NCBI RefSeq assembly: GCF_009914755.1
Contig: NC_060937.1
DNA: 64,000 nucleotides
Source: the human T2T-CHM13v2.0 reference genome, Homo sapiens
Strand: one strand, 5' to 3'
Below are positions 2,801 through 64,000 of the stretch, in pieces. The position numbers and the translations under genes were made by a program. The notes beneath the pieces were generated by a model, which saw only the letters and a list, made by a program, of their open reading frames with translations, searched no databases and was not told the DNA's origin. Position 1 is the first letter of the stretch; the number at the start of each line of letters is the position of its first letter.

Positions 2801-3459
2801 AATTTAGGAAGAAAGTTGATGCATTCAGTATACTTCACATAGAGCACTGGATGCGTATGGACATTTGGGTAAAGATATCTAAGAGGCAACTGAACGTCTG
2901 AGCCTGAAAGTTGGGGATGCAGAATGAGCTAAGGAGACAGATCTGCAAGTTGTCTGCCCCTGACTGGTAATCAGGGACCATGAGACCTTCAGAGAACCCC
3001 TGGAGAGGGCTCAACGTGGGAAGAAAGCCTAGGCAGAGCTCTGGAGAACACCAGGTAAAACGGCCTGGCAGAGGAAAAGGAGTCATGGAGGACACTGAGA
3101 AGCACAGTTAGAGAGGATGAAGGAGAACCAGGAGGACACGATGTGATTCGGTACAAAGGAAAGATATTACAGGAAAGAGGAAGGATAGTGCTAAGATTAA
3201 GGGCATAGCTTCTGAAGTCAGACCACCTTCATGCTGGTCTAGCACTTAATAATTGGGTGAAATAGAGCAAAGTATTCTTTTACGCTTTATACCTCAGTTT
3301 TCTCATCTGTAAATGGGTATCTTATAGGACTATTGTTAATATTAAAAACATTTAGACTAGCACCTGCCATGTATTATGTTCTTAATAAATATCATTTTTT
3401 ATTAATATTATAGATTTCTCTCTTCCATTTTTGTCAACTTCCCCAAGGGCAGAGACTAC

Positions 3460-3751
3460 TTTTTTTGAGACAAGTTCTCACTCTGTCACCCAGGGTGGAA
3501 TGCAGTGGTGCAATTATGGCTTACTGCAGCCTCAACCTTCTGGGCTCAAGTGATCTTCCCATCTTGGCCTTTCTAGTAGCTGGGACTACAAGTGTATACC
3601 ACCATGCCCAACTAAATTTTTTAAATTATTTTTTGTAGAGACAGGGTCTCACTATGTTGCCCAGGCTGCTCTCAAACTAGGGCTCAAGCAATTCTCCCAC
3701 CTCAACATCCTAAGTTGTTGGGATTATAGGCATGAGCCACCACACCCAGCC
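3460..3751 (-). mobile_element. Alu (J-like)
   Basis: Diverged antisense Alu. Confidence 0.92.
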
Positions 3752-5024
3752 ACAGAGACCACTTTTTAAAAATCTTCTTTGTATCTCATTCACCTACCAC
3801 AGCATATAACTCATAATAGGCACAAAGGAAATAGTTGTTGAATAAAATCACTCTACTAGGACCCTCTACGTGGCCAGAGCATCTTTTGTCATAATAGTTA
3901 GTCAGAGATTTGACCCACGGAGTCAACGTTCTGAGAAAAAAGTTTGTTTTTCTCCAAAGTCAGAAAAGTCTATTTTGGTTGTTTCCAAAGACATTTAATG
4001 TGCTTAAAAAATCCTAGAGTTGAAGAGACTTTAAAAGTTATCCAGTCCAATGTCCTTATTAATGCAAGAAACTTTATATGACATCCATAAAACTCAACTT
4101 CCAATGACAGCCAACCCACTCCCAGCCCATTTCTCTGTTAGAAGGTTTTATTTTATTCTTAGATCTTGAACACAAGGCGGCCTCCCTGCAATTTTTACCA
4201 ACTGATCCTAATTCAATCTTATAGAGCTACCCAGCCTACTTCTATACCCCTGAGAAGATAACAATCCTTCAAGAAACTGAAGACAACTACAGGCATCCCT
4301 TATTTTATTGGAAGAAGGTACCACCTAGGACTTTCACAGCTAGAGAAGAGAAGTAAATGCCTGGCTCCAAAGCTTCAAAGAACAGGCAGAGCCTCCTGTT
4401 AGGGGCTAATGCAGCTTGACTTGAAGTTGAAGTCAACGCACATTGACCATTCTGAAAATCTAGAGCCTTTAAGAATGGCGCTAAATCTACTCTACCTGTG
4501 CTCTATAAATGGAACAGAGCCTGGATGACAGCACCTGTGTACAGCATGGTTTACTGAATGTTTTAAGACCACTGTTGAGACCCAGTGTTCAGAAAAAGAT
4601 TACTTTCAAAATATTACTGCTCAGAGACAATGCACCTGATCACTTAAGAGTGCCGATGCAGACATATAAGGAAATTAATGTTCTTTTCATGCCTGTTAAT
4701 ATAACATCTGTTCTGCAGCCCAAGGATCAAGGACAAATTTTTAACTTTCGAGTCTTATTATTTAAGAAATACATTTCATATGGTTATTGCTGCCATAGAT
4801 ATTGATTTCTCTGACGGATCTGGGCAAAGTAAATTGAAACCCTTCTGGAAAGGATTCACTATTCTAGATGCCATTAAGAACATTCATGACTCATGGGAGG
4901 AGATCAAAATATCAACATGAATAGGAGTCTGGAAGAAGTTGATTCCAATGCTCATGGATGACTTGGAGAGGTTCCAGACTTCAGTGTAAGAAGTAACTGC
5001 AGATGTGACAGAAATAGCAAGAGA

Positions 5025-46286: not shown

Positions 46287-46292
46287 AATAAA
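46287..46292 (+). terminator. ACOD1 polyadenylation signal
   Basis: AATAAA about 650 nt after the stop codon. Confidence 0.75.
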
Positions 46293-46481
46293 GAATGAAA
46301 AGGAAAAAAGAGAAGTAAATACGTGAGTAATTATATAAATACTAAACTGTATTAAAATAATAGAAGTGTCATGGGGGTTAAAAATGCAACACTAACAATC
46401 ATAGTTAATGTGTTACAAATCCCTGGTATTGTTCAATAAAAGGGCAACCTATTAACTCTAGATGTTGATTAATAAGTATGC

Positions 46482-48851
46482 TGTATTAGTCCGTTCTCAT
46501 GCTGCTATAATGAACTGCCCAAGACTGGGTAATTTATAAAGGAAAGAGGTTTAATTGACTCACAGTTCCACATGACAGAGGAGGCCTCAAGAAACTTAGA
46601 ATCATGCCAGAAGGAGAAGCAAACACGTCCTTCTTCATATGAAGGAGAAGTGCTTCCTTCATAGGAAGGAGAAGTGCTGAGCAGAAGGCAGGAAAGCTCC
46701 CTATAAACCGTCAGATTTCAGGAGAACTTACTATCATAAGAATAGAAGCATGAAAGTAACTGGCACCATGGTTCAATTACCTCCCACCAGGTCCCTCCCA
46801 CAACACATGGGGATTATGGAAACTATAATTCAAGATGACATTTGGGTGGGGACACGGTCATACCATATCATTCTGCCTCTGGCCCCTCCCAAACATCATG
46901 TCTTCACATTTCAAAGCACAATCATGCCTTCCCTACAGTCCCTGAAAGTCTTAACTCATTCCAGCATCAAGGCAAAAGTCTAACTCCAAAGTCTCATCTG
47001 AGACAAGGCAAGTCCCTTCTGCCTATGGACCTGTAAAATCAAAAGCAAGTTAGTTACTTCCTAGATACAATGGGGGTAAAAGCACTGGGTAAATACATCC
47101 ATTCCAAATGGGAGAAATTGGCCAAAACAAAGGGGCTACAGCCCCCATGCAAATCCAAAACCCAGCGGGGCAGTCAAATCTTAAAGCTCCAAAATGACAT
47201 CCTTTGACTCCATGTCTCACATCCAGGTCATTCTGATACAAGAGGTGGGACTCCCATGGCCTTGGGCAGCTGTGTCCCTGTGGTTTTGCAGGGTACAGCC
47301 CCCTCCTCCCAGCTTCCTTCACAGGCTGGCATTGAGTGTCCACAGCTTTTCCAGGCACATATTGCAAGCCGTCGGTGGATCTACCATTCTGGAGTCTGGA
47401 GGACAGTGGCCCTCTTCTCACAGCTCCACTAGGCAGTGCCCCAGTGGGGACTTTCTGTGGGGGCTGCAGTCCCACATTTCCCTTCTGCACTGCCCAAGCA
47501 GAGGTTCTACATGAGGGCTCCACCCCTGCTGCAAACTTCTGCCTGGACATCCAGGCATTTCCATACATCCTCTGAAATCTAGAAGGAGGTTCTCAAACCT
47601 CAATTCTTGACTTCTGTGCACCCACAGGCTCAAAACCACATGGAAGCTGCCAAGACTTGGGGCTTACACCCCTTGAAGCCATGGCCTGAGCTGTACCTTG
47701 GCCCATTTTAGCCTCATCTGGGATGCAGGGAACCAAGTAAGCCCTGAGACTGTAGAAAGCAGCAAGGCCCTGGGCCCAGCCAATGAAACTATTTTTCTCT
47801 CCTAGGCCTCTGGGCCTGTGTTGGGAGGCACTGCTGTGAAGAGTTCTCACATGTCCTGCAGACATTTTCCCCATTGTCTTGGTGATCAACATTTGGCTCC
47901 GTGTTACTTATGTGAATTTCTACTGATGGCTTGAATTTCTTCTCAGAAAATGGGTTTTTCTCTTCCATCACATCATCAAGATGCAAATTTTCTGAACTTT
48001 CATGCTCTGCTTCTCTTTTAAACACAAGTTTCAATTCCAAACCATATCTTTGTGAATACATAAAATAGGATGCTTTTAACAGCACCTAAGTCACCTCTTG
48101 AATGCTTTGCTGCTTAGAAATTTCTCCCACCAGATACCCTAAATCTTCCCTCAAGTTCAAAGTTCCACAGATCTCTATGGCAGGGGCAAAACGCCACCAG
48201 TCTCTTTGCTAAAACGTAGCAACAGTCACCTTTATTCTAGTTCCCAACAAGTTCCTCATCTCCATCTGAGACCTGGATTCCATTGTCCATATCACTATCA
48301 TCATTTTGGTCAATGCCATTCAACATGTCTCTGGGAAGTTCCAAACTTTCCCATATCTTTCTGTCTTCTGAGCCCTTCAGACTTTTCCAACCTCTGCCTG
48401 TTACCCAGTTCCAAAGTCTCTTCCACATGTTGGGGTATCTTTATAGCAGTACCCCACTCCTAGTACCAATTTACTGTATTAGTCCATTCTCACACTGCTA
48501 TAAAGAACTGCCCGAGACTGGGTAATTTATAAAGGAAGGGGTTTAACTGACTCACAGTTCCGCTTGACTGGGGAGGTCTCAAGAACTTACAATCACGGCA
48601 GAAGGAGAAGCAAACATGTCCTTCTTCACATGATAGCAGGAAGAAGAAAAGCCAAGCAGAAGGGAGAAAAGCCCCTTATAAAATCATCAGATCTCAGGAG
48701 AATGCACTCACTAACATAAGAACAGCAGCATGAAAGTAAATTGCATCATAATTCAATTATCTCCCACAGGGTCCCTCCCACAACACATGGGGATTATGGG
48801 AACTGCAGTTCAAGATGAGATGTGGGTGGGGAACACAGCCAAACCATATTA
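46482..48851 (-). mobile_element. Full-length THE1-type MaLR provirus (LTR 46482-46870, internal region, LTR 48475-48851)
   Basis: Two related LTRs flank a ~1.6-kb THE1-internal sequence; TSD tatgc/tatgt. Confidence 0.93.
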
Positions 48852-48953
48852 TATGTCCACTGAAATTTCTAGGATAACCATTCGAGAACAGCAGTAGAAT
48901 GTACCACTTCCAGGTTAATAGAAGGAGAAAAATTGAATTAGAAAAATATAATC

Positions 48954-49247
48954 TGGCCAGGCATGGTGGTTCATGCCTGTAATCCCAACACTCTGGGAGG
49001 CCAAGGTAGGAGTACTGCTTGAGCCCAGGAGTTTGATGAGACAGTCTGGACAACATAGTGATATTTCATCTCTACAAAAAAAATCAAAAAAATTAGCCAA
49101 ACATGGTGACACACACTTGTAGTCCCTGCTACTCAGGAGGTTGAAGTTGGAGGATTGCTTGAGCCCCAGAGGCATAGGCTACAGTGAGCCATGATCATGC
49201 TGCTGTACTCCAGCGTAGGCAACAGAGCAAGACCCTCAAAAAAAAAT
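48954..49247 (+). mobile_element. Alu (J-like)
   Basis: Dimeric Alu. Confidence 0.92.
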
Positions 49248-49409
49248 CCAAAGGAAGGCAAAAAATGAGGGGGAAAGAAATATAAAAAAGGACATATAAA
49301 AAGCACAAAATAAAATGGTAGGAAAAATTCAAATATATCTATAATTACAAAAAGAGTAAATGGACTAAATGTTCCAGTTTAAAAAGACCAAGATTTCCTG
49401 AACATATTT

Positions 49410-50330
49410 TTTAAATGTTTAACAACTTTATTGATGTTTAATTTACATATTAATTCATCCATTTTAAGTGTACGGTTCAGTAAGTTTTAGTAAATTTATA
49501 GAGTTGTGCATGCATCACCACAATTCAGTTTTGGAATACTTCCTTTTACTCCAAGAAATTTTCTCATATTATCTGGGATCAATCCCCATTCCCACCTCCA
49601 GCCCATAGTAACCAGTGATGTATCTCTATAATTCTGTTGTTTCTAGACATTTCGGACAAATCAAATAATATAATAAGCAGTCATATGTGTTTGCCTTCTT
49701 TCACTGGCATAATGGTTTTGAGATTCTTCCACATATGTGTCAGCACTTTTTTGCTTTTCATTGCTGGACAGCTTTCCATTGTAGGGATATGCCAATGTTT
49801 GTTTACCCATTCACTAATTAATAGACAGTTGGGTTGCCTCCAGTTTGGGCTATTATGAATAGTGTTTCTATGAGCATTTACGTACAGGTCTTTGTGTGAA
49901 CATATGTTTCCATTTCTTTTTGATAGATACCTAGGAGTGACTCTGGGTCACTGGGTAAATATATTTTTAACTTTATAAAAAACGATTTTCCAAAGTAGCT
50001 CTATCATGTTACGTTTTCTCCAACAATATATGAGGGTTCCAGTTTCTCCTCATACTTACCAAACCTTAGAATTGTCAGTCATTTTTATTTCAGCCATTCT
50101 AGTGAGTGTGTAATGTTATCTCATTGTGGTTTTAATTTGCATTTCCCTAATGACTCATTCTCCTCCATTTTTCCAGTTCTTTTTATTGTGTGGTCTTCTT
50201 ATGGTATGGACGTATACCTGGAATATATAAGAGCTCTTTATATATTCTGGGTATAAATCCTTTATCAGATACATGTTTTGTAAAAATTTTCTCCCACTCT
50301 GTGGTTTGTCTTTTCATTTTTTAAAAAAAA
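49410..50330 (-). mobile_element. Old L1M 3' fragment nested in another + strand L1M remnant (~49260-52030)
   Basis: Antisense L1 3' motifs such as ttatctcattgtggttttaatttgcatttccctaatgac. Confidence 0.8.
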
Positions 50331-51074
50331 TTTATCATTCTGGCTTTGGATGTCATCAGAAGACTTTCTAAAATCCAATTATATACTTTATGCAAGACAA
50401 ATAAAAAATGCAGAAGGGTTGATGGTAAAAAAGATGGGGGATATACGGATGGAATATTAACAAAAGAAAACTGGACAAATAAATGTTAGTATTGGACCAA
50501 GCATTACTATAAATAGTGTCACTATGTAACGATAAAAAATTCAAATCACCAGCTAACTGAAATAATCCTAACCCTACATGCACCTAAATCATATTGAACT
50601 GCAAGAAGAAATCCATCTACCACCATACTGAGAGATTTTTAACATTCCTCTCCTATTAATTGATATTCAAGGAAACCAAAAATAAATGGGCTACATAATA
50701 TTTAAACACAATCAACATGTTTATACAACAGGAATTCTGTACCCAACAACTAGAGATTTCACAATCTTTTAGAAATCTCATAGAACATTTACAAAAGTGG
50801 ACTAACACTGAGCCATAATGCCAGTCTCAACAACTTTTCAAAGTACTGGATCATACAGTTATTTTCTCTAATCACAATGCAATTAAGTTAAAGATCAATA
50901 TTTTAAAAAAGATAATTAGAAAAGCTGCCAGCCGCAGTGGCACACATGTTCGTGCAGTCCTGGCTACTCAGGAGGCTGAGGCAGGAGGATCACTTGACCC
51001 CAGGAGATTGTGGCTACAATGAGATATGATGGCACCATTGCACTCCATCCTGGGCAACAAAGTAAGACCCTGTC

Positions 51075-51860
51075 TGGCCATCAGAGAAATGCAAATCAAA
51101 ACCACAATGAGATACCATCTCACACCAGTTAGAATGGCAATCATTAAAAAGTCAGGAAACAACAGGTGCTGGAGAGGATGTGGAGAAATAGGAACACTTT
51201 TACACTGTTGGTGGGACTGTAAACTAGTTCAACCCTTGTGGAAGTCAGTGTGGCGATTCCTCAGGGATCTAGAACTGGAAATAGCATTTGACTCAGCCAT
51301 CCCATTACTGGGTATATACCCAAAGGACTATAAATCATGCTGCTATAAAGACACATGCACACGTATGTTTATTGCAGCATTATTCACAATAGCAAAGACT
51401 TGGAACCAACCCAAATGTCCAACAATGATAGACTGGATTAAGAAAATGTGGCACATATACACCATGGAATACTATGCAGCCATAAAAAATGATGAGTTCA
51501 TGTCCTTTGTAGGGACATGGATGAAATTGGAAATCATCATTCTCAGTAAACTATCGCAAGAACAAAAAACCAAACACCGCATATTCTCACTCATAGGTGG
51601 GAATTGAACAATGAGATCACATGGACACAGGAAGGGGAATATCACACTCTGGGGACTGTTGTGGGGTAGGGGGAGGGAGGAGGGATAGCATCAGGAGATA
51701 TACCTAATGCTAGATGACGAGTTAGTGGGTGCAGCACACCAGCATGCACATGTATACATATGTAACTAACCTGCACAATGTGCACATGTACCCTAAAACT
51801 TAAAGTATAATAAAAAAAAAGAAAAATAAATAAATAAGATAAAATAATAAAATAAAATGT
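51075..51860 (+). mobile_element. Young 5'-truncated L1 (L1PA2-like) abutting an Alu monomer (50927-51074)
   Basis: Intact ORF2 C-terminus ([16 protein letters not shown]...FSLIGGN*); the 3'UTR has GCTAGATGACGAGTTAG (GAG rather than the L1HS ACA/ACG). Confidence 0.9.
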
Positions 51861-52521
51861 AATCCAAAAAATAAAAAAGCCTGAAGTATTTGTAAATGAA
51901 GACACACAAATTTTTTTTATTTTATATTTTGCATCACAAAATAAATAATGAAAATTATAAAATATTTGGGACTAACCAATGACAAAAATACTACAAATCA
52001 GAACTGGTAAGATGTAACTGAAGCAGTACTTTGAAATTACATGTAGAATCGCTGGCTCTCTATTATTACTTGGATTATGCTGTTCCACAGGACACATCAC
52101 AAATCCCTGATGAATTTGTCTGAACACAGCTGATCAAAGAAAAGGTAAAAGAGGTTTCTTTAATTGTAGCCCTGAGGTAAATTTAATTGTACTTTCTTGA
52201 TGCATTGCAGACGTTTCTAGGGGCAACATCTAAGGACTATTAATAATATCCTCAGATAAGACCTGACAGATGCCTCAGACCACCAGCAGGGGTTGGGGAA
52301 GCCACTCTCTCCTGAGGGGGACAAGAGTACTCAGGGTGACCTTGATGTTGGTCATTATGCCCACTGAGTAAACTGAAGGCAGGAGAATACATCAGGGAAA
52401 TGTTGGCCTATAGAGAGAGCTGAAGGCTCCTCTTCACTGGCAGGCCACACATATAAATGGGAGAGACAGAGAGGAAGAGAGGGGAGAGAGATCCACTCTC
52501 CACATCCTTTCCAGGTGATGA

Positions 52522-53232
<711 letters not shown>

Positions 53233-53559
53233 TAGGAATTGATCTGACGTCTAGGAATTGTGGCAAATGCTTGCGTTTTCCCTCTCATTCCCTTAGGGAG
53301 AACAACCAAAGATGCTGCTCAGTCCATTTTTATTGTTATAGGGCTTAGGTACAAGCAAATTAGCCCTCCACATGGATCAGGCCAGATCACCAGGGAGAAA
53401 CCCACCCTGAGCCTGGGACAAAGGCTTCAGGCTCACAGAGAAAGTTTCCATTTCAGCTCCCTCCCTGTACTTCTGCATCCTTGGCACACATCCATGGCCC
53501 CGAGTCAAACTGCCTCAGTCAGCAGAAACATTTTTGCCATCTTTAAAGAGCCCTAGTGC

Positions 53560-54103
53560 TGGCTATTGCATATGTTTCAGGGATGCCTGAGGCCATGCAC
53601 ACATTTGGTGATTCATGAGAAGGACCCAGCATTTAGTAGCCCCGTGGCTAGGGTTTACTACAGTGCAAGGATACATGACACGATAAGCAACAGAAAAACA
53701 CACATGCAAAGTCTGGAAAAATCCAAGCACAGGCTTTTAATGCTCTCTCCCTCCCCTGAGGAGACTCATGAAGCAGGCTCCTTTTGTCAGCAGCGAAAAA
53801 TTCAGTAATGTGTGTGCAATGTTTCTGCCCTAGAAAGAGACTCAGCATTCAAAGATTTTACATGGTTGGTTACGTAGGCACCCTCTCCCTAGAAATAATC
53901 AGAATTCCAAACTCAAAGAAGAAAAGCGGGTATTCAGCATAAACCAAGTTGCTTGCGCAGTCTAGATACAATGAATCATTCTTATCAGCTAGAGAGTGGG
54001 TTAAAGTGCTATGTTCCTAGACACCAGCCAAGGGCCAGCCTGGTAAGCAAGTGTTTCCTAAAGCAGCAGCCTCAGGTCTGCTATGTTATTTCTTTTCTGC
54101 GTG
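53560..54103. mobile_element. MER21-like LTR
   Basis: taggcaccctct...gtattcagcataaacc...ccagccaagggcca...ctcaggtctgctatgtta. Confidence 0.7.
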
Positions 54104-54287
54104 GCTTTTAAACCTGAAACCCCTTCCTTTCCTGTTTGTGCAGCTTTGTAGGGTAGGAAAATGTTATATAAAAGTTGGACCTCACCTCCACTTTAGGCAT
54201 TGCCACTGCTCTGTTGCACTTGAGCCCTGTAAGCTGTGTGTTCTATCACAGTATTAACTAAAGCTGATATCCCCAGTAGGCTTAAAA

Positions 54288-56350
54288 CTGTAGGATTTCT
54301 GCACAGAGATCCGCTGTTGGTCTGATGGGCTTCCCTTTGTAGGTGACCTGTCCTTTCTCTCTGGCTGCCCTTAACATTTTTTCCTTCATTTTGACCTTGG
54401 AGAATCTGATGATTATGTGTCTTGGGGTTGATCTACTCGTGGAGTGTCTTAGTGGTGTTTTCTGTATTTCCTGAATTTGCATGTTGGCCTGTCTTGCTAG
54501 GTTGGGGAAGTTCTCCTGGATAATATCCTGAAGTGTGTTTTCCAAGTTGGTTCCGTTCTCCCCATCTTCTTCGGGTACTCCAGTCAATCATAGGTTGAGT
54601 CTTTTTACATAGTCCCATATTTCTCGGAGGTTTTGTTTGTTCCTTTTCATTCTTTTTTCTCTAATCTTGTCTGTGTGCCTTATTTCAGCAAGATGGTCTT
54701 CCAACTCTGATACCCTTTCTTCTGTTTGGTCGCTTCGGCTATTGATACTTGTGTATGTGTTACAAAGTTCTCATGCTGTGTTTCTCAGCTCCATCAGGTC
54801 ATTTATGTTCCTCTCTAAACTGGTTATTCTAGTTAACAGCTCCTGCAACCTTTTATCAAAGTTCTTATCTTCTTTGCATTGGGTTAGAACACGCCCCTTT
54901 AGCTCAGCAGAGTTTGTTATTACCCATCTTCTGAAGCCTACTTCTGTCACTTCATCCATCTCATCCTCTGTTCAGTTCTGTGCCCCTGCTGGAGAGGTGT
55001 TGCGATCATTTGGAGAAGAGCCATTCTGGCCTTTCAGGTTTTCAGTGTTTTTTCGTTGATTCTTTCTCGTCTTCATGAGTTTCAATCTTTGAGGCTGCTG
55101 ACCCTTGAATGAGGTTTTTGTGGAGACTTTTTTGTTCATGCTGTTGTTGTTGCTTTCTGTTTGTTTTTCTTTCAATGGTCAGGTCCCTCTTCTGTAGGGC
55201 TGCCGCAGTTTGCTGGGGCTTCACTTCAGGCCCTATTCATCTAATTTGCTCCCACTCCTGAAGATGTCACTCAAGGAGGCTGGAGAACAGCAAGATGGGT
55301 GACTCCTCCTTCCTCTGGGATCTCTAACCCCAAGGAGCACTGACCTGATGCCAGTAGGAATGCTCCTGTATAGGGTATCTGGCAACCCCTGTTGGAAGGT
55401 CTCAGGTCTCACCCAGTTGGGTGGCACAGAGAACAGGACCCGTTTAATATAGCACTTTGAATATCCCTTGGTGGAGGGGGTGTGCTTCGCTGGGGGGAAA
55501 TGCACTCGTCTGGGCTGTCTGGGTTCCTCAGAACTAGCAGGAGGAAAGACTAAGTCAGCTAGTCCGTGGAGACTATGGCTACCCCTTCCCCTAGGGGCTC
55601 AGACCCAGGGAGATCAGGGTTCAGTCCCTGAGCCCCTGGCTGGAGTTGTTGGAGTTCCTGCAGGGAGGCCCCACCCAGTGAGGAGGGATGGGTCAGGGTC
55701 AGGCCTGAAGAGGCACTATGGCTGCATCTGCCACAGCCAGTGTATTGGGCTGTGGGGAATACCTCTTGGGACCAACCCGTCCAACCTCCCTGGCTTCAGC
55801 GGGGAGAAAAGCATGGCCTGGAGCTATAGTGATGGCTGCCACCCTTCCCCCACCCTGGGAGCTTAGTGTGTTAGGCAGCTAGCAGTCCCAGTGTTGGCTG
55901 CTGCCCCTCTCCCAAGGAGCTCAAATGGCTTAGACAGCAGGCAGTGACAGCTGTGGTGCTCGCCACTCCTCAGCTGGGAACTTGGCAGGCTTAAGCAGAT
56001 TCTAGCTGAGTGGCTGTTGAGAATCTCCATGGCTCCGTGGCTGAGACCCTAGGTCCCAGTGGAGTGGGCTCACGAGTGGGATCTTCCCATCCGTGGGTTG
56101 CACAGTTCCATGGAAAAAGCACGATTTCCCAGGCTAGGTAGCACGCTCACTCATCACCTCCCTTGGCTGGGGTGTGGGGGCTCCCCTGACCCACGTGGCT
56201 CTCGGGTGGGCCACCGCACCACACTGCTCTTCCTTGCTCTCCATGGATCATGCCAGCCTCCTAGTCAGTTCTGATAACAGAATCTGGACACCTCAGTTGC
56301 TGGCGCAGGATTCACACACTGTTATGGTTTTTGCTGGGAGCCTCCGATCT
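54288..56350 (-). mobile_element. Older L1PA/L1P 5'UTR plus ORF1 fragment
   Basis: LENTLQDIIQENFPNLARQANMQIQEIQ...GKPIR on the - strand, followed by a GC-rich 5'UTR. Confidence 0.9.
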
Positions 56351-56354
56351 CTGT

Positions 56355-56445
56355 TGCATAGTTTCACATGGCTGGGGAGGCCTCACAATCATGGCAGAAG
56401 ATGAAGACCAAAGAGATGTTTTACATGGCAGCAGGCAAAAAAGCT
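56355..56445 (-). mobile_element. Short internal piece of a THE1/MST LTR
   Basis: cacatggctggggaggcctcacaatcatggcagaag...ttacatggcagcaggcaa. Confidence 0.8.
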
Positions 56446-56856
56446 CTCATTCTCTTTATGGCTGCACAGTATTCCATAGTGTATATGTACCACATTTTCT
56501 TTATCTAGTCTATCATTGATGGGCATTTAGGTTGATTCCATGTCTTTGCATTGTGAGTAGTATTGCAATGAACGTACATATGCATATGTCTTTATAATAG
56601 AATGATTTATATTCCTTTGGGTATATACCCAGTAATGAGATTGCTGAGTCAAATGGTATATTTGTCTTTAGGTCTTTGAGGAATCACCACACTGTCTTCC
56701 ACAATGTTTGAACTAATTCACACCAACAGTGTATAAGCGTTCCTTTTTCTCCACAACCTCGCTGGCATCTGTTATTTATTGACTTTTTAGTAATAGCCAT
56801 TCTGACTGGTGTGAGATGGTATCTCATTGTGGTTTTGATTTGCATTTCTCTAATGA
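56446..56856 (-). mobile_element. L1 ORF2 3' fragment
   Basis: gccattctgactggtgtgagatggtatctcattgtggttttgatttgc. Confidence 0.88.
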
Positions 56857-57874
56857 AGATCTGTGATTATTTTAAGCCAGCTGCTTATAATGAGAACATG
56901 TGAGTTTTAAAGGAATGTTTATAAATTATATTTTATAACAACTTCGCTTGGAAGGTTTTATCTAAAAAACATCACACTCAGAGAACTCCCGTGTGATAGG
57001 CCCCAGGGACCACCGTTAAGTACTGTGATAGCTTGTGTAAAGGAAACTCTTTGGGGGATACTGGGTAAATAATGGGCTTTCATTCAATTTAACACGTGTG
57101 TATTGAGGGCTTACTATCTGCCAGGGGATATTCTCAGTGCAGGTAATAGAGCAATGGACAAAATAGGCAAAACCTCCTGTTCTCATGAGCTTACGATCTA
57201 TTATGGGTAGAGAGACAACAAGCAAAATAATTGAATAAGATGAGGAAAGTGCTCTGTGCCTGTTCTGGGCAGCCTCTGCTTGCTTTGTTCCTCCCCTGGT
57301 AGGAATGTAAGCTTCTGGTGCTGAGTTAGGTTCAGGGACTAGAAGAGTCCAAAGAATGTGAGCCTCCCTTTAATGGAATTAAAAGCTTCCAGTTCTTTCT
57401 GGGCCATGATATAACCTATGACTGCAAAAGACCAGTGGTACCATACAAAGGTAGCTTCCTTGTCGATTCTAGCAAGACTTCCCTGCACAGAGCAAAGCTA
57501 TAGGGAATCAAGGTAGGGGGCAAAGGGGCAAAGTCATGACAAAATGTGCTGCTTTTCATTCCAGCAGAGTTGTGCAAGTATGTACATGTGTGTGCAATCT
57601 CTTCTCCCAACAAAAGATCTACCTGCAATACTTCGCTTATTTAAAAAAATTATTCATTAGTAAAATTACTCATCCTCTGTTCTCTGACCATAAAAAAAAA
57701 TAGCACCGTAATAGTTCACAGAAAGTAATAATTCAAGACATTCAAAGCAGGTGAGTATGTCATAGGCAACTACTCAGGCTCTTGCTTAAACCCTGGGTGC
57801 CCAGTAGTTTGCAGCTGTGTGGCACATCAAAAGAATTTATGATACATGGTAACTTTCTTAAAGCTTCATGGCTC

Positions 57875-58530
<656 letters not shown>

Positions 58531-59023
58531 CCTTCCAAGAAATAACTAAAATTAGTTTAGTCTTCCAGCGCAGTTGTAAATGCAGAATTCAACATTCCGA
58601 TATTACCATCTCATTTAAAAAGTTATCCTTTTTGTGCAGTTATTACAAACAAGTCAACCAACCCCAGTTACAGCTGGCACCTATGAAGGAGCCAACCTGG
58701 AGGTTCAATAAAAACTTTAAAACAGCCCAATGCCCATCTTTCAGAAGCATGGCATGATAGTGTTGCTTCTGACTCTAAAAAATAAAAAATGTACTTTTTT
58801 AGAAACCATGTATGTCAGTATAATTGCTACTTACTTATGAGTCAAGATCACAATTAAAGTACCTACCATCAAGTGAAAGAGTATGTAATTCATCTGGTAG
58901 GAGCTAAACTATTTTTACCTGAACAATTTCTTCTAAATATTATACGTCAAGCACTATATCTCAAGCCTGCTGTAAAACATGTCCTACCATTTTTACTAAT
59001 CCACCAGAAATATCATGCAAAGA

Positions 59024-59191
59024 GCCAGGTGCAGTGGTGTGTGGCTATAGCCCCAGCTACTCGCGAGGCTGAGGCAGGAAGCTGGCTTAAACCCAAAAGT
59101 TCAAGACTGTAGTGCACAATGATCACATCAGTGAATAGCCACTGTACTCCAGCCTGGGCAACATAGTGAGACTTTATGCCTAAAAAAAAAA
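59024..59191 (+). mobile_element. Ancient Alu monomer (FAM/FRAM-like) inside the last exon of the GATD3-like pseudogene
   Basis: Monomer with gtgaatagccactg; degenerate TSD (atcatgcaaag / accatgcagaag). Confidence 0.85.
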
Positions 59192-59798
59192 CCATGCAGA
59201 AGGGCCATGCCATGAATGCACATGTCAGTGCCATTTTGTTGGTAACATCCCCATAGGATTTACTCACATCCATGTTTACAGCTAGGGCCCTGTACAGCAG
59301 TGTCTCTGTCATCACCAGAAAACATATCATGAAGAGAAGTTATAACTGAGTGGGGAAAAAAATGTTCCTTAGGCACCTGGCAACATGACCGTGAAAAAGG
59401 TTAAAATTACTGGCTTACACTGGCCTCTCAAACACTGCCAAGTTCAGAAAAAAAGCTCACAGATATTATGCACCCAAGAAATCGGTCCCAACATGAGGCT
59501 TCACTTAAATACCCAGTTAGTAAGATAAATGAAGGGTAAATGTACTAGGATCAATATGAAATAATTAAAGCAAGCGCCACTTGATTCTTACAGCTGAATG
59601 ATATGATAACAGAATTGCCACGTTGAATTTTTTTCTTTCAGAGTAAGCCAATGTATTAATAGTTTGAAAGAATATATTTTCCATATGATTCAAGCCATCT
59701 AGTCTTATCACCTTAAACCACAGCCCCTTATCACCTCCACCTCCACCCTAATGCCAATCACCAAATGCTGCAGCCCCGTAATGAATGATAATTTGTCT

Positions 59799-60069
59799 AG
59801 CACCCTGGGAGGCCGAGGCCGGGGGATCACTTGAGCCCAGGAGTTCAAGACCAGCCTGGGCAACATGGCAAAACCCCATCTCTACAAAAAATACAAAATT
59901 AGCCAGGTGTGTTGGTGCATACCTATGGTCCTAGCTACTCGAGAGGCCAAGGTGGGAGGGTCACTTGATCCCAGGAGGTCGAGGTTGCAGTGAGTCATGA
60001 TCACGCCACTGCAGTGCACTGCACTGCCAGCCTGGGTGACAGAGCAAGACTCTGTTACAAAAAAAAAAG
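59799..60069 (+). mobile_element. 5'-truncated Alu in the pseudogene intron
   Basis: TSD gataatttgtc(t/a)agc. Confidence 0.92.
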
Positions 60070-60605
60070 ATAATTTGTCAAGCTATTAGAAAAGTGGTCA
60101 CGTCTATATTTATCTGCAGGAAGGAAAATAGGAAAGCGCCGTAGGACCTGCTTACTCGGCAGGCAGCTTTCTATCCTTTTCTTTCCCTCTGTCCACATTA
60201 TTATCCTGACCCGCTGTGACTTCACCAGCAGGAAGGTTTCGGCTGCCAAGCCAGGGGAAATGCAGCAGCAGTAGCGATGGGCTTCCTCCCACAGGGGAAG
60301 GCTTGAAGTGTCCTTCACAGAACTGCCGACAGAGCAGTCTTTCCCATCCAGGGCAGCTCTGAGCTACTCCAAAGCCACCAGCAAAGACGACGACCCAGGA
60401 TTATTTAAGGCAGCTGACAAGAAGAATGGATGAACAAATCTTGGGCAAAGAATGAGGGTATAGAAGAGCAACACATAACACACGTGGTTAGGATGTAAAA
60501 ATAGTATTTCTTTAATGTCTTCTAGAATTGATAGTGACTTTGAATTAATTCATTAACTTTGTTTTTTTCTTTCCCATTAACTTTTTTTAAAAAGTCAGTA
60601 CCGCA

Positions 60606-60905
<300 letters not shown>

Positions 60906-61489
60906 CTATAATCGTCAAGATACCTTGGAGATCTTTTTGTAAAAAACTGATGACAAATTCTGAAACACACTCAAATCATTAAAGACATTACATAGCTTCA
61001 ATGTAGCCTTATAGCAAGTGGACTCAATAGACATAAAGGGCTTATATTAACCTAATAATAATAAATAATCATTTTGCATCAACAGTATGAAATTCTGAAG
61101 ATTCAAGCTGGGACACCTATCATGATGCTAATTTTTGCTAAATATTTCAAGTTTGGTACGAAGTAGAACTATATCTATTAAAAAGCTTTTGAGATAACTC
61201 CATACATTTTAAAAACATAAACCTATCCTTATGTGCTAAAATATTTTTTAAGTAGCAGTAATTTTGACATTAATTTGCTAGTAATACTACCTTAGATGTG
61301 AAAATACTAATATTAGCACCAGACTTCAGGAGCAATAACCCTTACAAACGTCTCTCGGGTTAACCGTATTAGCAGTAGAAGAAAAGAGTGAATTCTCAAA
61401 ACACCCACAACTCAAATAAAATGAATCTCCCTAGCCCTTTCTCTCTCTGGGGATTTGTAGATAGATTTAAACTTACATTTTATTCATAA

Positions 61490-62755
61490 TGTGTAGCATG
61501 TCTCCAAAGACAGTTATCCAATATCCATGCCTCCTGGTATTGATGCCCTTTTGGGGTCCCCTCTCCTTGAATCGAATCTCACTTTTGATCCATTGAAAGC
61601 TGCAGAAGTGATGCAGAGAGACTTCTTGGCTACATTGTAAGAGGAAAGCCCAAGTCTCTTGTGCTAAAATTCTTAATTGGGAGGACATTAGGTTGAGAGA
61701 GCTCAGCACTCTGGGTTCCTACAAAAGCAACCTGAAACCCAACTCAGAGTGAACGGTCACGGTCATCCCAGGAAAACAACACTTAAGCTTAACCAATCAG
61801 AAACCACCAACCAACCTCTAACTAGAGACTTTACCAATCAGAAATTGCCAATGAACCTCAAACTAGTGACTTTTCACTTTAACCACTCAAATGGTTTTTT
61901 GTGGGGTTTTTCTTTTTTTTGCCTTGCTTCCAAGAACATCTAGAGCTGCCCAATTCATGAGCTGTCTATTCAAATAAACTGGTTAAAATTTGAATGTGCC
62001 TAAGTTTGTCTTTTCACACTTAGAATCCTTGTTCTGGGGAATGCCAAATTCGCATGGAAAAAGCCTAACCACCCTGAGGCCTACGAGTTATGCGGAAGCC
62101 CAGGATTGCCACAGGGAATGGTCACATGGCTGCATGGCCAGCCTTCAGCTCTTCAGCCATCCTAGCCCAGGCACCAGACATGAGAGTGAAGACACTGTTG
62201 TGGATATCCAGCCAAGCCAAGCCTTTAGATAGCTGCAGCCCCAGCCTCTACCTCAATGCAACATTATTAGACACCCCAAGCAAAGCCCAGCTACCCCAGC
62301 TAGTACTGGGGCTCCTTTTTCTGCCTAAGATCCAGACCCACCAAAAGGTTTCCTCCCCCTCTCTCTAAGACCAAGAATGTCACCATACCTGATCAGACTC
62401 TTTCACAAGATAACGTGCAAGTTAATCTCTGTTCCCTGATCCATTCATTCATTGTCCCTAGAAATCCCCTCAATGGAATTCTTCCACCCCTTCCTGCAAC
62501 CTGTTTCGCCAGGATGATGTATAAGCTTTTGAACCCCCTTAGGGGATGGGTAATCACTCTGTGATTCGCCTGGTGTACACCTTAATTAAATTTGTATGCC
62601 TTTTCTCCAATTAATCTGCCTTATGTGGGCTGACTTTTCTGAGAATCTTCAGAGGGCAAAGAGAAAGCTTTCCTTTGACCTCTACGTTACTCAACCCACA
62701 GAACCAAGAAAGATAATAAATTATTGATTAAGCCATGAAATGTAAGCAATAAATG
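61490..62755 (+). mobile_element. MLT1-type LTR with nested ERV1-like LTRs (~61715-62017 and ~62300-62686)
   Basis: MLT1 motifs (cccaggcaccagacatgagagtgaag) interrupted by segments with CCAATC boxes and AATAAA/ATTAAA signals. Confidence 0.6.
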
Positions 62756-63061
62756 TCTGGAACACTATATATGTAAAATAGCAGTAAGCAACCTATTTGG
62801 TAGATGTATAGATAGCAACAAGCAACACACACTCCTGATCCAATACAATGATTCCCAATTCTCACTGTGGGACATCTCCAAAGTGTCTCCAAAAGCTTTA
62901 GAAACATTGTGAATGAACTGATATAATCTGACAATAAAACTAACTTTGTTTAGTTTGAAAAATATAAACATAGGACATACTATTCCTTATGAAGGGAATT
63001 AAAAAGAAGTCAAAGAAAAATATCTGAGAAAATTGTACTCATAAATGAATCTTTTATTTAA

Positions 63062-63379
<318 letters not shown>

Positions 63380-63599
63380 TAGTAAATCAATCTTTTATTT
63401 CAATTTATTTATTTCAATAAAAGATTGATTTATGTTTTATTGATCACAAATCAAATTAAAGTCTAATTTTAAATCTTTTATTTGAAAAGGGAGCGTTATC
63501 AATCTAAAACTGATTTCTGCCCTGAAAAGGTCCAGAAACAGGCAAAACCTCTACTGTAATTTTCAAAGTCTGAAGGCCTCAAAGGGTGGTCTGCCTGCA

Positions 63600-64000
63600 A
63601 CACCCCACCTGTTGCCTAGAAGCCGAATCAGAATCTGCATTGTAACAAGATCTCCAGGTGAGTCATGCGTCCATTGAAGTTGAAGAAGTACTGGCAGAGA
63701 GCAGCAGTTCCCAAACTTGTCTGCACATGAGAATCATCTGGGAATCTTTTTAAAATTCCGAAATCCAGGCCATACCCTAGACCAACGAAATCATGGGACA
63801 CAGGCGTTGATGGTTTTGAAGGCTACCAGGTGATTCCAATGTGCAGCCAACTTCGAGACCTAGTGGTCACCCTAGATAGGGCACTGGGAAATCACTTGGG
63901 GAGCATAAACACTAATATTGGTTTCCACCCCCGGAGAGTCTCATGTCGCTGGTCTCAGGTATGACCTATGCATCTGGAGTTTTTAAAAGCTCCAGGTAAT
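63600..64000. mobile_element. MER5A-like cluster
   Basis: aatcagaatctgcat...ccaggtga...; ccaggtgattccaatgtgcagcca. Confidence 0.7.

What the first reader, a model, noticed from the sequence alone, without database searches (positions are those of the whole stretch)
58961..60390. Hidden dead ES1/GATD3-like (DJ-1/PfpI) gene tail-to-tail with ACOD1
Seen: on the - strand, short frames hop through VFAGGFGVAQS / ALDGKDCSVGSSVKDT / QAFPCGRKPI / CCISPGLAAETF / GEVTAGQDNNVDRG (60390-60185). After an ~860-bp gap come FSGDDRDTAVQGPSCKHGC / VSKSYGDVTNKMALTCAFM (59322-59200), and beyond an Alu monomer LHDISGGLVKMVGHVLQQA-TGA (59020-58961). Established: these are, in order, the PGGFG loop, the nucleophile-elbow GKPIGLCCIxP motif and the C-terminal half of ES1/GATD3/ElbB proteins, and the stop falls where the family ends. 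Inference: the intron-like gap argues against a retrocopy of GATD3A. This looks like a separate paralogue that died in place (unitary pseudogene). I recall an intact ES1-like gene between ACOD1 and CLN5 in birds, which needs checking. If so, a DJ-1-family (glyoxalase/deglycase-type) enzyme linked to the itaconate-producing enzyme was lost in this lineage.
Basis: partly seen in the sequence, partly recalled or inferred. Interest (0 to 1): 0.9.

Follow-up and report, generated by a model that had tools for sequence, protein, structure and literature searches.

The report
Dead GATD3A-like paralogue beside ACOD1
Between ACOD1 and CLN5 the human genome holds the broken, intron-bearing remains of a second ES1/GATD3-type enzyme gene that is still intact from fish to marsupials, so it looks like a gene lost in placental mammals rather than a copy of GATD3A.

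Summary
All quoted peptides are present on the minus strand. They align colinearly with a vertebrate-wide ES1/ElbB-family paralogue of 224-226 aa, named GATD3AL1 in chicken.

The remnant is larger than reported. A well-preserved exon lies just past the window end at 64333-64163. The finding itself covers the next two exons, 60378-60188 and 59322-58961. The last exon is split by an Alu-like insert with a target-site duplication.

The two gaps fall exactly where isoforms of the intact bird and marsupial gene show exon borders. They do not fall at GATD3A's borders.

In a tree the human remnant groups (100/98) with partial gene models from deer, bat and other placentals. This group is sister to marsupials and lies inside the paralogue clade, away from GATD3A. 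Chimeric gene models tie the gene to FBXL3 and KCTD12.

Human lesions: at least 8 frame breaks, the Alu-like insertion, and no detectable first exon.

I found no annotation in the supplied RefSeq table and no paper. This is an apparently undescribed unitary pseudogene of moderate interest.

The parts
60379..64000 (-). Intron between exons X and Y, shown only up to the window end. The whole intron runs 60379-64162 (3.8 kb). It carries two stretches that the hub table lists as masked repeats (60550-60899, 63051-63425).

BEYOND THE WINDOW: the exon 2 remnant ('X', residues 38-95 of the marsupial protein P0017) lies at window-numbering 64163-64333, which is L008:163-333 on the minus strand. An acceptor (...tttttgaag|G) and a consensus donor (CCTG|gtgagt) are still present. 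There is one 1-base deletion near 64263. The form does not accept coordinates above 64000, so this exon is recorded here.
   Evidence: Exon X: the ElbB profile hit has E=2e-6. The sequence was read. tblastn with P0017 and P0013 gives E of 1e-16 to 1e-17. The frameshift-aware alignment has 40 of 58 residues identical, z=31 against 25 shuffles. Models from opossum, ptarmigan and other species start this exon at the same residue.

Intron: the border lies within the Gly95 codon. This is supported by bird isoform P0033 (an 11-residue insert exactly there), by P0072, and by deer, bat and metaclust models that splice X to Y. The start of the 60550-60899 repeat matches the SRP/Alu model.
60188..60378 (-). 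Exon 3 remnant ('Y', residues 95-163). It holds the GGFG loop, the KPI..CCISP nucleophile elbow and EVT.G..NVD. There are five frame breaks, near 60351, 60346, 60312, 60268 and 60230. The expected acceptor dinucleotide (60380-60379) reads TG.
   Evidence: 45 of 70 identical to P0017; z=28. Profile hits have E=1.1e-4 and 7.6e-4.
59323..60187 (-). It contains an Alu at about 59800-60060.
   Evidence: Bird isoforms P0021 and P0026 diverge right after DGR, and the metaclust model P0010 splices there. SRP/Alu matches lie at 59902-60056.
59192..59322 (-). Exon 4 remnant, first part ('Z', residues 164 to about 210). It runs FSGDDRDTAVQGPSCKH, then a frame break, then DVSKSYGDVTNKMALTCAFM, then a 1-base deletion and the left copy of the target-site duplication (59206-59192).
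   Evidence: E=0.003; E=0.052; z=11.
59027..59191 (+). Alu-like (monomer-sized) insertion inside the last exon, antisense to the gene. Its T run abuts the left flank. The flanking 15-base direct repeat is 12 of 15 identical.
   Evidence: Rfam Metazoa_SRP match at 59024-59182 on the + strand, E about 1e-3. The repeat was read. Both flanks align to the same residues (A-P/L-L-H) of the intact protein.
58961..59026 (-). Exon 4 remnant, last part: ..SLHDISGGLVKMVGHVLQQA followed by TGA at 58963-58961, which is the position of the stop in the intact proteins.
   Evidence: 10 of 22 identical, ending at the last residue of P0013 and P0031. One search gives z=4.2, and one of 25 shuffles tied.

Best explanation
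This is a unitary (unprocessed, in-place) pseudogene of the second vertebrate ES1/ElbB-family gene, which chicken annotation calls GATD3A-like 1 (GATD3AL1). The intact gene encodes a 224-226 aa DJ-1/PfpI-superfamily enzyme. It has the same catalytic Glu and Cys motifs as GATD3A but no N-terminal presequence, so it is probably a cytosolic glyoxalase/deglycase (inferred).

The gene has four coding exons and lies downstream of FBXL3 on the same strand. In the human lineage three of the four coding exons survive in order on the minus strand between CLN5 and ACOD1. They are disabled by at least eight frame breaks, an Alu-like insertion in the last exon, loss of an acceptor AG, and loss or decay of exon 1.

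Similar broken remnants occur in carnivores, deer, sheep, pangolin and bats. The branch leading to all of them is long. So constraint was probably already lost before boreoeutherian mammals diverged (inferred). The locus today most likely does nothing as a protein.
For: Homology and colinearity.

Orthology to the paralogue rather than to GATD3A:
- The tree has 39 rows. The human remnant is in a 100/98 clade with four other placental remnants. That clade is sister to marsupials (88/78) and sits inside a paralogue clade separated 100/100 (branch 0.39) from GATD3A-type proteins of mammals and fish.
- Paralogue-specific residues are kept: TCAFM, CCISP, NVD, and an ending of ..VL..A followed by the stop.

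Exon structure:
- The human gaps fall at residues 37|38, within Gly95, and after 163. Alternative or chimeric models of the intact gene break at the same places.
- The GATD3A borders are HEASA|ILV, ESR|NVL, AKNL|STF and KPIG|LCC (the last two are confirmed by exon-skipping isoform P0075). All of these lie inside contiguous chr13 DNA.

Synteny: the N-terminus of the opossum chimera maps to human FBXL3 exons at 90-96% identity. The deer chimera maps to KCTD12 at 94% identity.

No other copy in the genome: only the GATD3A exons and this locus were found.

Family of the intact orthologues: NF008747 scores 270-275 bits against a cut-off of 180, starting at residues 2-5. ElbB structures match at E=6.6e-55. 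The motifs holding GATD3A's E62 and C176 (Smith 2022, PMC8935817, passages read) are present in 15 and 16 of 16 intact paralogues.

Early loss of constraint: the placental stem branch is 0.37 and the tips are 0.3-0.66. At 106 columns invariant in 18 intact proteins, 111 of 434 remnant cells differ. Three columns differ in every remnant with data.
Against: - Exon 1 (residues 1-37, including the catalytic Glu) was not found up to window position 80000 or genome-wide. The 5' end of the remnant is therefore undefined.
- Synteny in birds and marsupials rests on chimeric gene models, not on genome coordinates.
- Exon borders of the intact gene are inferred from protein isoforms, not from genomic DNA.
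- One bird isoform (P0043) skips 25 residues starting at the GATD3A-like AKNL border, which I cannot explain.
- Candidate shared frameshifts among placentals are inconsistent between models. Human and bat share one that the metaclust model lacks. Human and deer share another that bat lacks. No single shared inactivating mutation is shown.
- Only Laurasiatheria and human were seen. Afrotheria, Xenarthra and monotremes were not identified.
- Species names of several proteins were cut off in the listings.
- GENCODE and Ensembl pseudogene tracks could not be consulted.
Confidence: 0.9

Rival explanations
1. It is a processed pseudogene (retrocopy) of GATD3A, later broken up by repeat insertions.
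For: Four GATD3A introns (after ESR, AKNL and KPIG, and near KEVV) are absent from the chr13 pieces. On its own this looks like a retrocopy. Nucleotide identity to the GATD3A coding sequence is 65-68%. The sequence VVVFAGG at 60394 overlaps AVILPG at 64161 like a target-site duplication.
Against: The tree places the remnant with the paralogue, sister to marsupials, and not with mammalian GATD3A. The gaps fall at the paralogue's own exon borders, with the acceptor and a GTGAGT donor kept at exon X. Orthologous remnants and intact genes are linked to FBXL3 and KCTD12 in other species. No A-run adjoins either end of the 3.8 kb interval.
Confidence: 0.02
2. The gene was lost several times independently within placentals, with the human copy dying later (for example in primates or Euarchontoglires), rather than once in the placental stem.
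For: No frameshift is shared by all placental models. Exon X is still an open frame in carnivore, deer and pangolin models. Candidate shared frameshifts conflict with the species tree.
Against: There is a long common stem (0.37) before the placental remnants split. Substitutions at otherwise invariant sites are shared: V to E in NVL.ESAR in 12 of 14 remnants, and K to Q in GVAKN in 4 of 5. No intact placental protein is among the named rows of the 68 hits. All placental models are partial or chimeric.
Confidence: 0.2
3. The locus is still used, for example as an exon of a non-coding RNA or for a short peptide from exon X.
For: Exon X keeps both splice sites and has only one frame break. Gene predictors build spliced models on the orthologous exons in other mammals.
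Against: The RefSeq table supplied shows no transcript here. Exon 1 is missing. Exon Y has five frame breaks and a TG at the acceptor. The amino-acid divergence looks unconstrained. No expression data could be examined.
Confidence: 0.05
4. The resemblance is due to chance.
For: Single-frame pieces gave no Pfam or NCBIfam hit. The last piece scores no better than the best of 25 shuffles.
Against: The z-scores are 28 and 11 for the two main pieces. The seven top profile hits are colinear on one strand. The stop is at the family's end.
Confidence: 0.005

Closest known systems
[quoted passage not shown]
   Same: It falls in the same clade in the tree. The inferred exon borders are the same. The neighbourhood with FBXL3 and KCTD12 is the same. 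The diagnostic residues and the stop position are the same.
   Different: The human copy is broken: there are frame breaks, an Alu-like insertion, and exon 1 was not found. It cannot encode the enzyme.
GATD3A (ES1 homologue, C21orf33), the mitochondrial deglycase / glyoxalase III on chr21
   Same: It belongs to the same ElbB/ES1 family (NF008747). It shares the GGFG, KPIGLCCI.P and TT.AFM motifs. Exon X peptides are about 50-58% identical to it.
   Different: GATD3A is a different gene. It has a presequence of about 40 residues (its profile match starts at residue 44, against 2-5 in the paralogue). It has at least six coding exons with other borders. It forms a separate clade and is intact. 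Its function comes from Smith 2022 (PMC8935817, passages read) and from PMC10209487 (search listing and highlights only).
E. coli ElbB (PDB 1OY1, 1VHQ)
   Same: It is the closest solved structure to the intact orthologue, at E=6.6e-55 over residues 4-225.
   Different: It is bacterial. The vertebrate paralogue has a 9-residue insertion around NVDGRFPD (alignment).
Zebrafish cone ES1 (mega-mitochondria factor, PMC4772128)
   Same: It belongs to the same family. That paper notes a second, broadly expressed zebrafish paralogue (passages read).
   Different: ES1 is described there as 31 kDa with a mitochondrial signal. A published RT-PCR primer translates to ..QIFAP, which is the GATD3A-type motif rather than the paralogue's VKIFAPN. 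So the dead human gene is probably not the cone ES1 orthologue. This inference is weak and rests on one primer.

Membership tests
ES1/ElbB family (NCBIfam NF008747; DJ-1/PfpI superfamily) | Full-length profile match above the curated cut-off (180 bits) | tested here: not met
   The human remnant gives only one exon-sized hit of 38.2 bits, as expected for a pseudogene. Its intact orthologues P0017, P0031 and P0022 score 270-275 bits. The remnant descends from a member but is not a working member.
ES1/ElbB family (NCBIfam NF008747; DJ-1/PfpI superfamily) | Nucleophile-elbow cysteine (GATD3A C176 in G-L-C-C-I-x-P) | tested here: met
   CCISP is still readable at 60267-60253. GLCCI[SA]P is present in 16 of 16 intact paralogues. 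The role of C176 is from PMC8935817.
ES1/ElbB family (NCBIfam NF008747; DJ-1/PfpI superfamily) | Catalytic glutamate (GATD3A E62 in D-G-[ST]-E-[IL]-H-E) | tested here: not met
   This residue lies in exon 1, which was not found in the human locus. It is present in 15 of 16 intact paralogues.
GATD3AL1 orthologous group | Groups with GATD3AL1-type proteins to the exclusion of GATD3A-type proteins | tested here: met
   The split is supported 100/100. The remnant lies within the tetrapod paralogues (98/95).
GATD3AL1 orthologous group | Same exon borders (37|38, within Gly95, after Arg163) | tested here: met
   The human pieces start and end at these residues. The borders are inferred from isoforms P0014, P0049, P0025, P0028, P0037, P0033, P0072, P0021 and P0026. 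No genomic DNA of those species was seen.
GATD3AL1 orthologous group | Conserved position next to FBXL3/CLN5 and ACOD1/KCTD12 | tested here: inconclusive
   The position is supported indirectly by chimeric FBXL3-paralogue models in opossum and ptarmigan and a paralogue-KCTD12 model in deer. The ptarmigan FBXL3 part is taken from its name and F-box domains and was not mapped here. Gene order in those genomes could not be read here.
Unitary pseudogene | Disabling lesions in an unprocessed copy that keeps its introns | tested here: met
   There are at least 8 frame breaks, an Alu-like insertion with a target-site duplication, and TG at an acceptor. The introns are retained.
Unitary pseudogene | No functional copy of the same gene elsewhere in the genome | tested here: met
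   A genome-wide six-frame search with P0017 gave 10 matches at E up to 10. Six are GATD3A exons, three are this locus, and one is a chr11 match at E=1.39 and 25% identity.
Processed pseudogene of GATD3A | Derives from GATD3A mRNA: nearest to GATD3A in a tree, contiguous, with a poly-A tail and flanking duplication | tested here: not met
   The tree, the exon-border gaps with splice signals and the orthologues in other vertebrates all contradict this.

The most novel reading that the evidence does not exclude
Placental mammals lost, early in their history, a presequence-less (probably cytosolic) ElbB/ES1-type glyoxalase/deglycase that every other jawed-vertebrate group sampled here still keeps. 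Chicken liver expresses it as protein. If the enzyme detoxifies dicarbonyls or early glycation adducts outside mitochondria, its retention could contribute to the known tolerance of birds to high blood glucose. Its loss would leave placentals dependent on GLO1/GLO2 and DJ-1 in the cytosol. The paralogue shares no intron position with GATD3A, so it may itself have begun as an ancient retrogene that later gained introns.
Probability: 0.2. Interest if true: 0.7.

Novelty: new member of a known kind. Interest (0 to 1): 0.5.

Why it matters
GATD3A has been described as the only primarily mitochondrial deglycase in mammals (PMC8935817). This locus shows that vertebrates ancestrally had a second family member without a targeting peptide, and that humans carry only its wreck.

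That matters in three ways:
- It gives a clean, datable gene loss in the placental lineage.
- It points to an unstudied enzyme (GATD3AL1) in birds, reptiles, amphibians, fish and marsupials that could matter for dicarbonyl and glycation biology.
- It warns that partial 'GATD3A' or 'FBXL3 isoform' gene models in many mammals and birds are artefacts of this remnant or its neighbour.

The RefSeq table supplied has no entry for it. Seven literature searches found nothing on the loss. The main text of PMC8935817 has no occurrence of 'pseudogene', 'duplicat', 'lost' or 'vertebrate'.

Tried and rejected
- Pfam and NCBIfam scans of the six single-frame pieces gave 0 hits each. The pieces are too short per frame.
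- GATD3A retrocopy. I first favoured this because GATD3A's introns are missing from the chr13 pieces. I dropped it after the splice sites of exon X, the isoform borders and the tree.
- Target-site duplication at the 3.8 kb gap. The flanks match at about 12 of 21 positions by eye. But no A- or T-run adjoins the gap, and the Y-side sequence reads as a pyrimidine tract plus a mutated acceptor. I rejected this in favour of an intron.
- Search for exon 1. tblastn, a profile over 56001-80000 and a genome-wide search found nothing credible. The best candidates had E=7.5 or worse.
- Shared inactivating frameshifts across placentals. Protein models gave conflicting patterns, so I make no claim.
- Link to zebrafish cone ES1. 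One primer translation suggests ES1 is GATD3A-type.
- I could not derive a canonical GT-AG pair for the last GATD3A intron (KEVV|EAHV) by eye against P0074. I left this open because it does not affect the conclusion.
- Literature searches returned nothing relevant.
Full report
**What is there**

Taken frame by frame the pieces are too short for library profiles: 6 of 6 gave no Pfam and no NCBIfam hit.

A six-frame search of the whole assembly with the ElbB/ES1 profile NF008747 found the GATD3A exons on chr21. It also found one further hit on chr13 at window 64155-64286, minus strand (E=2e-6, 38.2 bits, open frame). That is 155 bases beyond the end of the window and 3.8 kb upstream of the finding.

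Reading that stretch shows an exon-like block at 64333-64163. A pyrimidine tract and AG precede it, and a consensus donor GTGAGT follows it. It encodes VKVFAPNVEQMLIVNHLKGSPTE, then one lost base, then KRNVLEESARRARRDVQDLADLNSSKLDAVILPG.

**Which gene it comes from**

Against GATD3A exon peptides the chr13 pieces are 41-70% identical. At DNA level they are 65-68% identical to the GATD3A coding sequence (122 of 179 and 128 of 198 aligned bases).

GATD3A's exon borders were read from the chr21 locus. Two of them are confirmed by the exon-skipping isoform P0075. These borders fall inside contiguous chr13 DNA, which at first suggested a retrocopy.

A protein search with the upstream exon (8 hits among 48 candidates) and then with an alignment of those hits (68 hits among 8000 scored candidates) changed the picture. 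Two kinds of protein turned up:

- Partial or chimeric gene models carrying this same exon from fur seal, otter, pangolin, fallow and red deer, sheep and three bats.
- Intact proteins of 224-226 aa from marsupials, birds (chicken name: GATD3A-like1), lizards, a salamander, a frog, sturgeon, gar and many teleosts (carp name: Zgc:162944).

The intact proteins score 270-275 bits on NF008747 (cut-off 180). Their match begins at residues 2-5, whereas in GATD3A it begins at residue 44. So the paralogue lacks the mitochondrial presequence. Their nearest solved structure is E. coli ElbB (E=6.6e-55).

The motifs holding the residues that Smith et al. 2022 showed or predicted to be catalytic in GATD3A (E62, C176; PMC8935817, passages read) are present in 15 and 16 of 16 intact paralogues.

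**Alignment of the human locus to the paralogue**

tblastn and a frameshift-aware alignment with the dunnart protein P0017 gave colinear matches:

- residues 38-95 at 64333-64161 (40 of 58 identical);
- residues 90-166 at 60394-60173 (45 of 70 identical);
- residues about 164-203 at 59322-59211;
- residues 204-224 at 59033-58970, with the TGA where the intact proteins stop.

Against 25 shuffles of the protein the scores stand at z=31, 28, 11 and 4.2. For the last piece one shuffle tied.

A profile of 14 intact paralogues was searched over the 1536 six-frame ORFs of 56001-80000. The seven best hits are all on the minus strand and in protein order, with E from 1.1e-13 to 6.8. Noise follows them.

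A genome-wide search with P0017 found 10 matches at E up to 10: six GATD3A exon matches, three matches at this locus, and one weak chr11 match (E=1.39, 25% identity).

**The gaps are introns of the paralogue**

Alternative and chimeric models of the intact gene reveal its exon borders.

- Opossum and ptarmigan FBXL3 chimeras, and several bird isoforms and partial proteins, all begin the shared part at VKIFAPN. This places a border at 37|38.
- Bird isoform P0033 has an 11-residue insert exactly between FP and GGFG. P0072 also resumes at GFG. This places a border within Gly95, phase 1.
- Bird isoforms P0021 and P0026 diverge immediately after NVDGR. This places a border after residue 163.

The human pieces begin and end at these three points. 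Deer, bat and metaclust models splice the same exons together.

None of these borders coincides with a GATD3A border. It contains an Alu (SRP-model matches at 59902-60056). The 3.8 kb interval is the preceding intron.

The in-frame VVVFAG just upstream of GGFG is best read as the old pyrimidine tract and acceptor, which now reads TG instead of AG at 60380-60379. This last point is inferred.

**The last exon**

After ...TCAFM the sequence runs into a T-run and an SRP/Alu-like element at 59024-59182, on the + strand (E about 1e-3, below Rfam's gathering score). Both flanks carry a 15-base direct repeat with 12 of 15 bases identical. Both flanks align to the same residues of the intact protein. 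This is the signature of a retroposon insertion with a target-site duplication.

**Phylogeny**

The tree has 39 rows (IQ-TREE, LG+C20, 243 columns). The rows are:

- the X-joined human remnant;
- 4 other placental remnants;
- 22 intact paralogues, with chimeras trimmed to the shared part;
- 10 GATD3A-type proteins (7 mammals, 3 fish);
- 2 distant outgroups.

These rows are a hand-picked subset of the 68 hits and the 120 listed (of 351) hits. I chose them for named taxa and full length.

The paralogue clade is separated from GATD3A-type proteins with 100/100 support (branch 0.39). Within it the tetrapods are supported 98/95. The five placental remnants form a 100/98 clade that is sister to the two marsupials (88/78).

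The placental stem is long (0.37) and the tips are 0.30-0.66, against 0.02-0.03 for the marsupials. The rooting inside the GATD3A-type proteins looked unstable, and I draw nothing from it.

**Synteny**

Residues 1-161 of the opossum chimera P0014 map to human chr13 at window 109145-109495 and 106228-106362, minus strand, at 90-96% identity. This is inside FBXL3. Residues 79-212 of the deer chimera P0009 map to KCTD12 at 94% identity.

So the gene lies downstream of FBXL3 and upstream of KCTD12 on their strand in these species, as the remnant does in human. This is indirect evidence, because I could not read those genomes.

**State of the human copy**

- One 1-base deletion in exon X.
- Five frame breaks in exon Y.
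- At least two frame breaks in exon Z, plus the insertion.
- TG at the Y acceptor.
- No AG at the expected Z acceptor (inferred).
- Exon 1 not detectable.

**Timing**

At 106 columns that are invariant in 18 intact paralogues, 111 of 434 remnant cells differ. Three columns differ in every remnant that has data. These include V to E in NVL.ESAR in 12 of 14 remnants and the family-wide Lys of GVAKN becoming Q in 4 of 5.

Together with the long stem, this suggests that constraint was lost before human and Laurasiatheria split. However, candidate shared frameshifts conflict between models. I saw no Afrotheria, Xenarthra or monotreme rows that I could name. The timing is therefore an inference, which I rate at about 0.7.

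**Function of the lost gene (inferred)**

By family, the intact gene is a DJ-1/PfpI-superfamily ElbB/ES1 enzyme.

- GATD3A is reported as a mitochondrial deglycase (PMC8935817, passages read).
- Mouse ES1 is reported as a glyoxalase III (PMC10209487, search listing and highlights only).
- The paralogue keeps the catalytic motifs but has no presequence, so a cytosolic enzyme of the same chemistry is the most likely reading.
- Chicken GATD3AL1 was detected in a liver proteome (PMC12262841, one table row read).

Nothing links it functionally to ACOD1 beyond lying tail-to-tail 12.7 kb from it.

It is probably not the orthologue of zebrafish cone ES1. ES1 is described as 31 kDa with a mitochondrial signal, and a published primer translates to the GATD3A-type QIFAP (PMC4772128). 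This is weak evidence.

**Novelty**

The RefSeq table supplied has no feature at 46289-64000 or up to RPL7P44. The following searches found no description of the loss:

- GATD3 + pseudogene (11 papers, none relevant by title or abstract start);
- GATD3AL1 (one proteomics paper);
- 'zgc 162944' (none);
- GATD3 + eutherian (one unrelated paper);
- unitary pseudogene + CLN5 (none);
- IRG1 + CLN5 + synteny (none);
- GATD3A + gene loss (only PMC8935817).

The main text of PMC8935817 has no occurrence of 'pseudogene', 'duplicat', 'lost' or 'vertebrate'. GENCODE/Ensembl and the supplements were not seen.

**Verdict**

This is a genuine, apparently undescribed unitary pseudogene. It is a new member of a well-known kind and of moderate interest.

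Noticed in passing
L010/L011 (chr21 GATD3A) versus window 58961-64000 and L008:163-333: GATD3A and the paralogue share no intron position within the conserved domain. The paralogue has three introns and GATD3A has at least five, all at different residues. One of the two may have started as an ancient retrogene that later gained introns.
   Followed up: partly
window 60187-60150 (minus strand): Just past the exon-Y coding end the human DNA reads KEKDRKLPAE and then a donor-like GAG|TAAG. Bird isoform P0021 reads KEKPKSLE at the same place, and a bat model splices about 30 bases downstream too. This may be a conserved alternative donor.
   Followed up: partly
proteins P0014, P0017, P0049: Opossum, dunnart and ptarmigan annotations list the ES1-like protein as 'FBXL3 isoforms'. 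Two of the models fuse FBXL3 exons to it. This is either read-through transcription from FBXL3 or an annotation artefact.
   Followed up: partly
proteins P0035, P0045, P0020: Some teleost and one frog paralogue-clade proteins carry a 28-35 residue N-terminal extension. This could be a targeting peptide, so the paralogue may not be cytosolic in all lineages.
   Followed up: no
protein P0043: A bird isoform skips 25 residues beginning exactly at the AKNL border that GATD3A uses. In human this stretch is contiguous DNA. I have no explanation.
   Followed up: no
L011 about 2960-4440 (chr21): I could not find a canonical GT-AG pair that yields the KEVV|EAHV junction of human GATD3A (P0074) from the frames printed.
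   Followed up: no
window 59834-60038: There are sub-threshold Rfam matches to mir-3135 and mir-1268 inside the intronic Alu. They are probably Alu-derived look-alikes.
   Followed up: no
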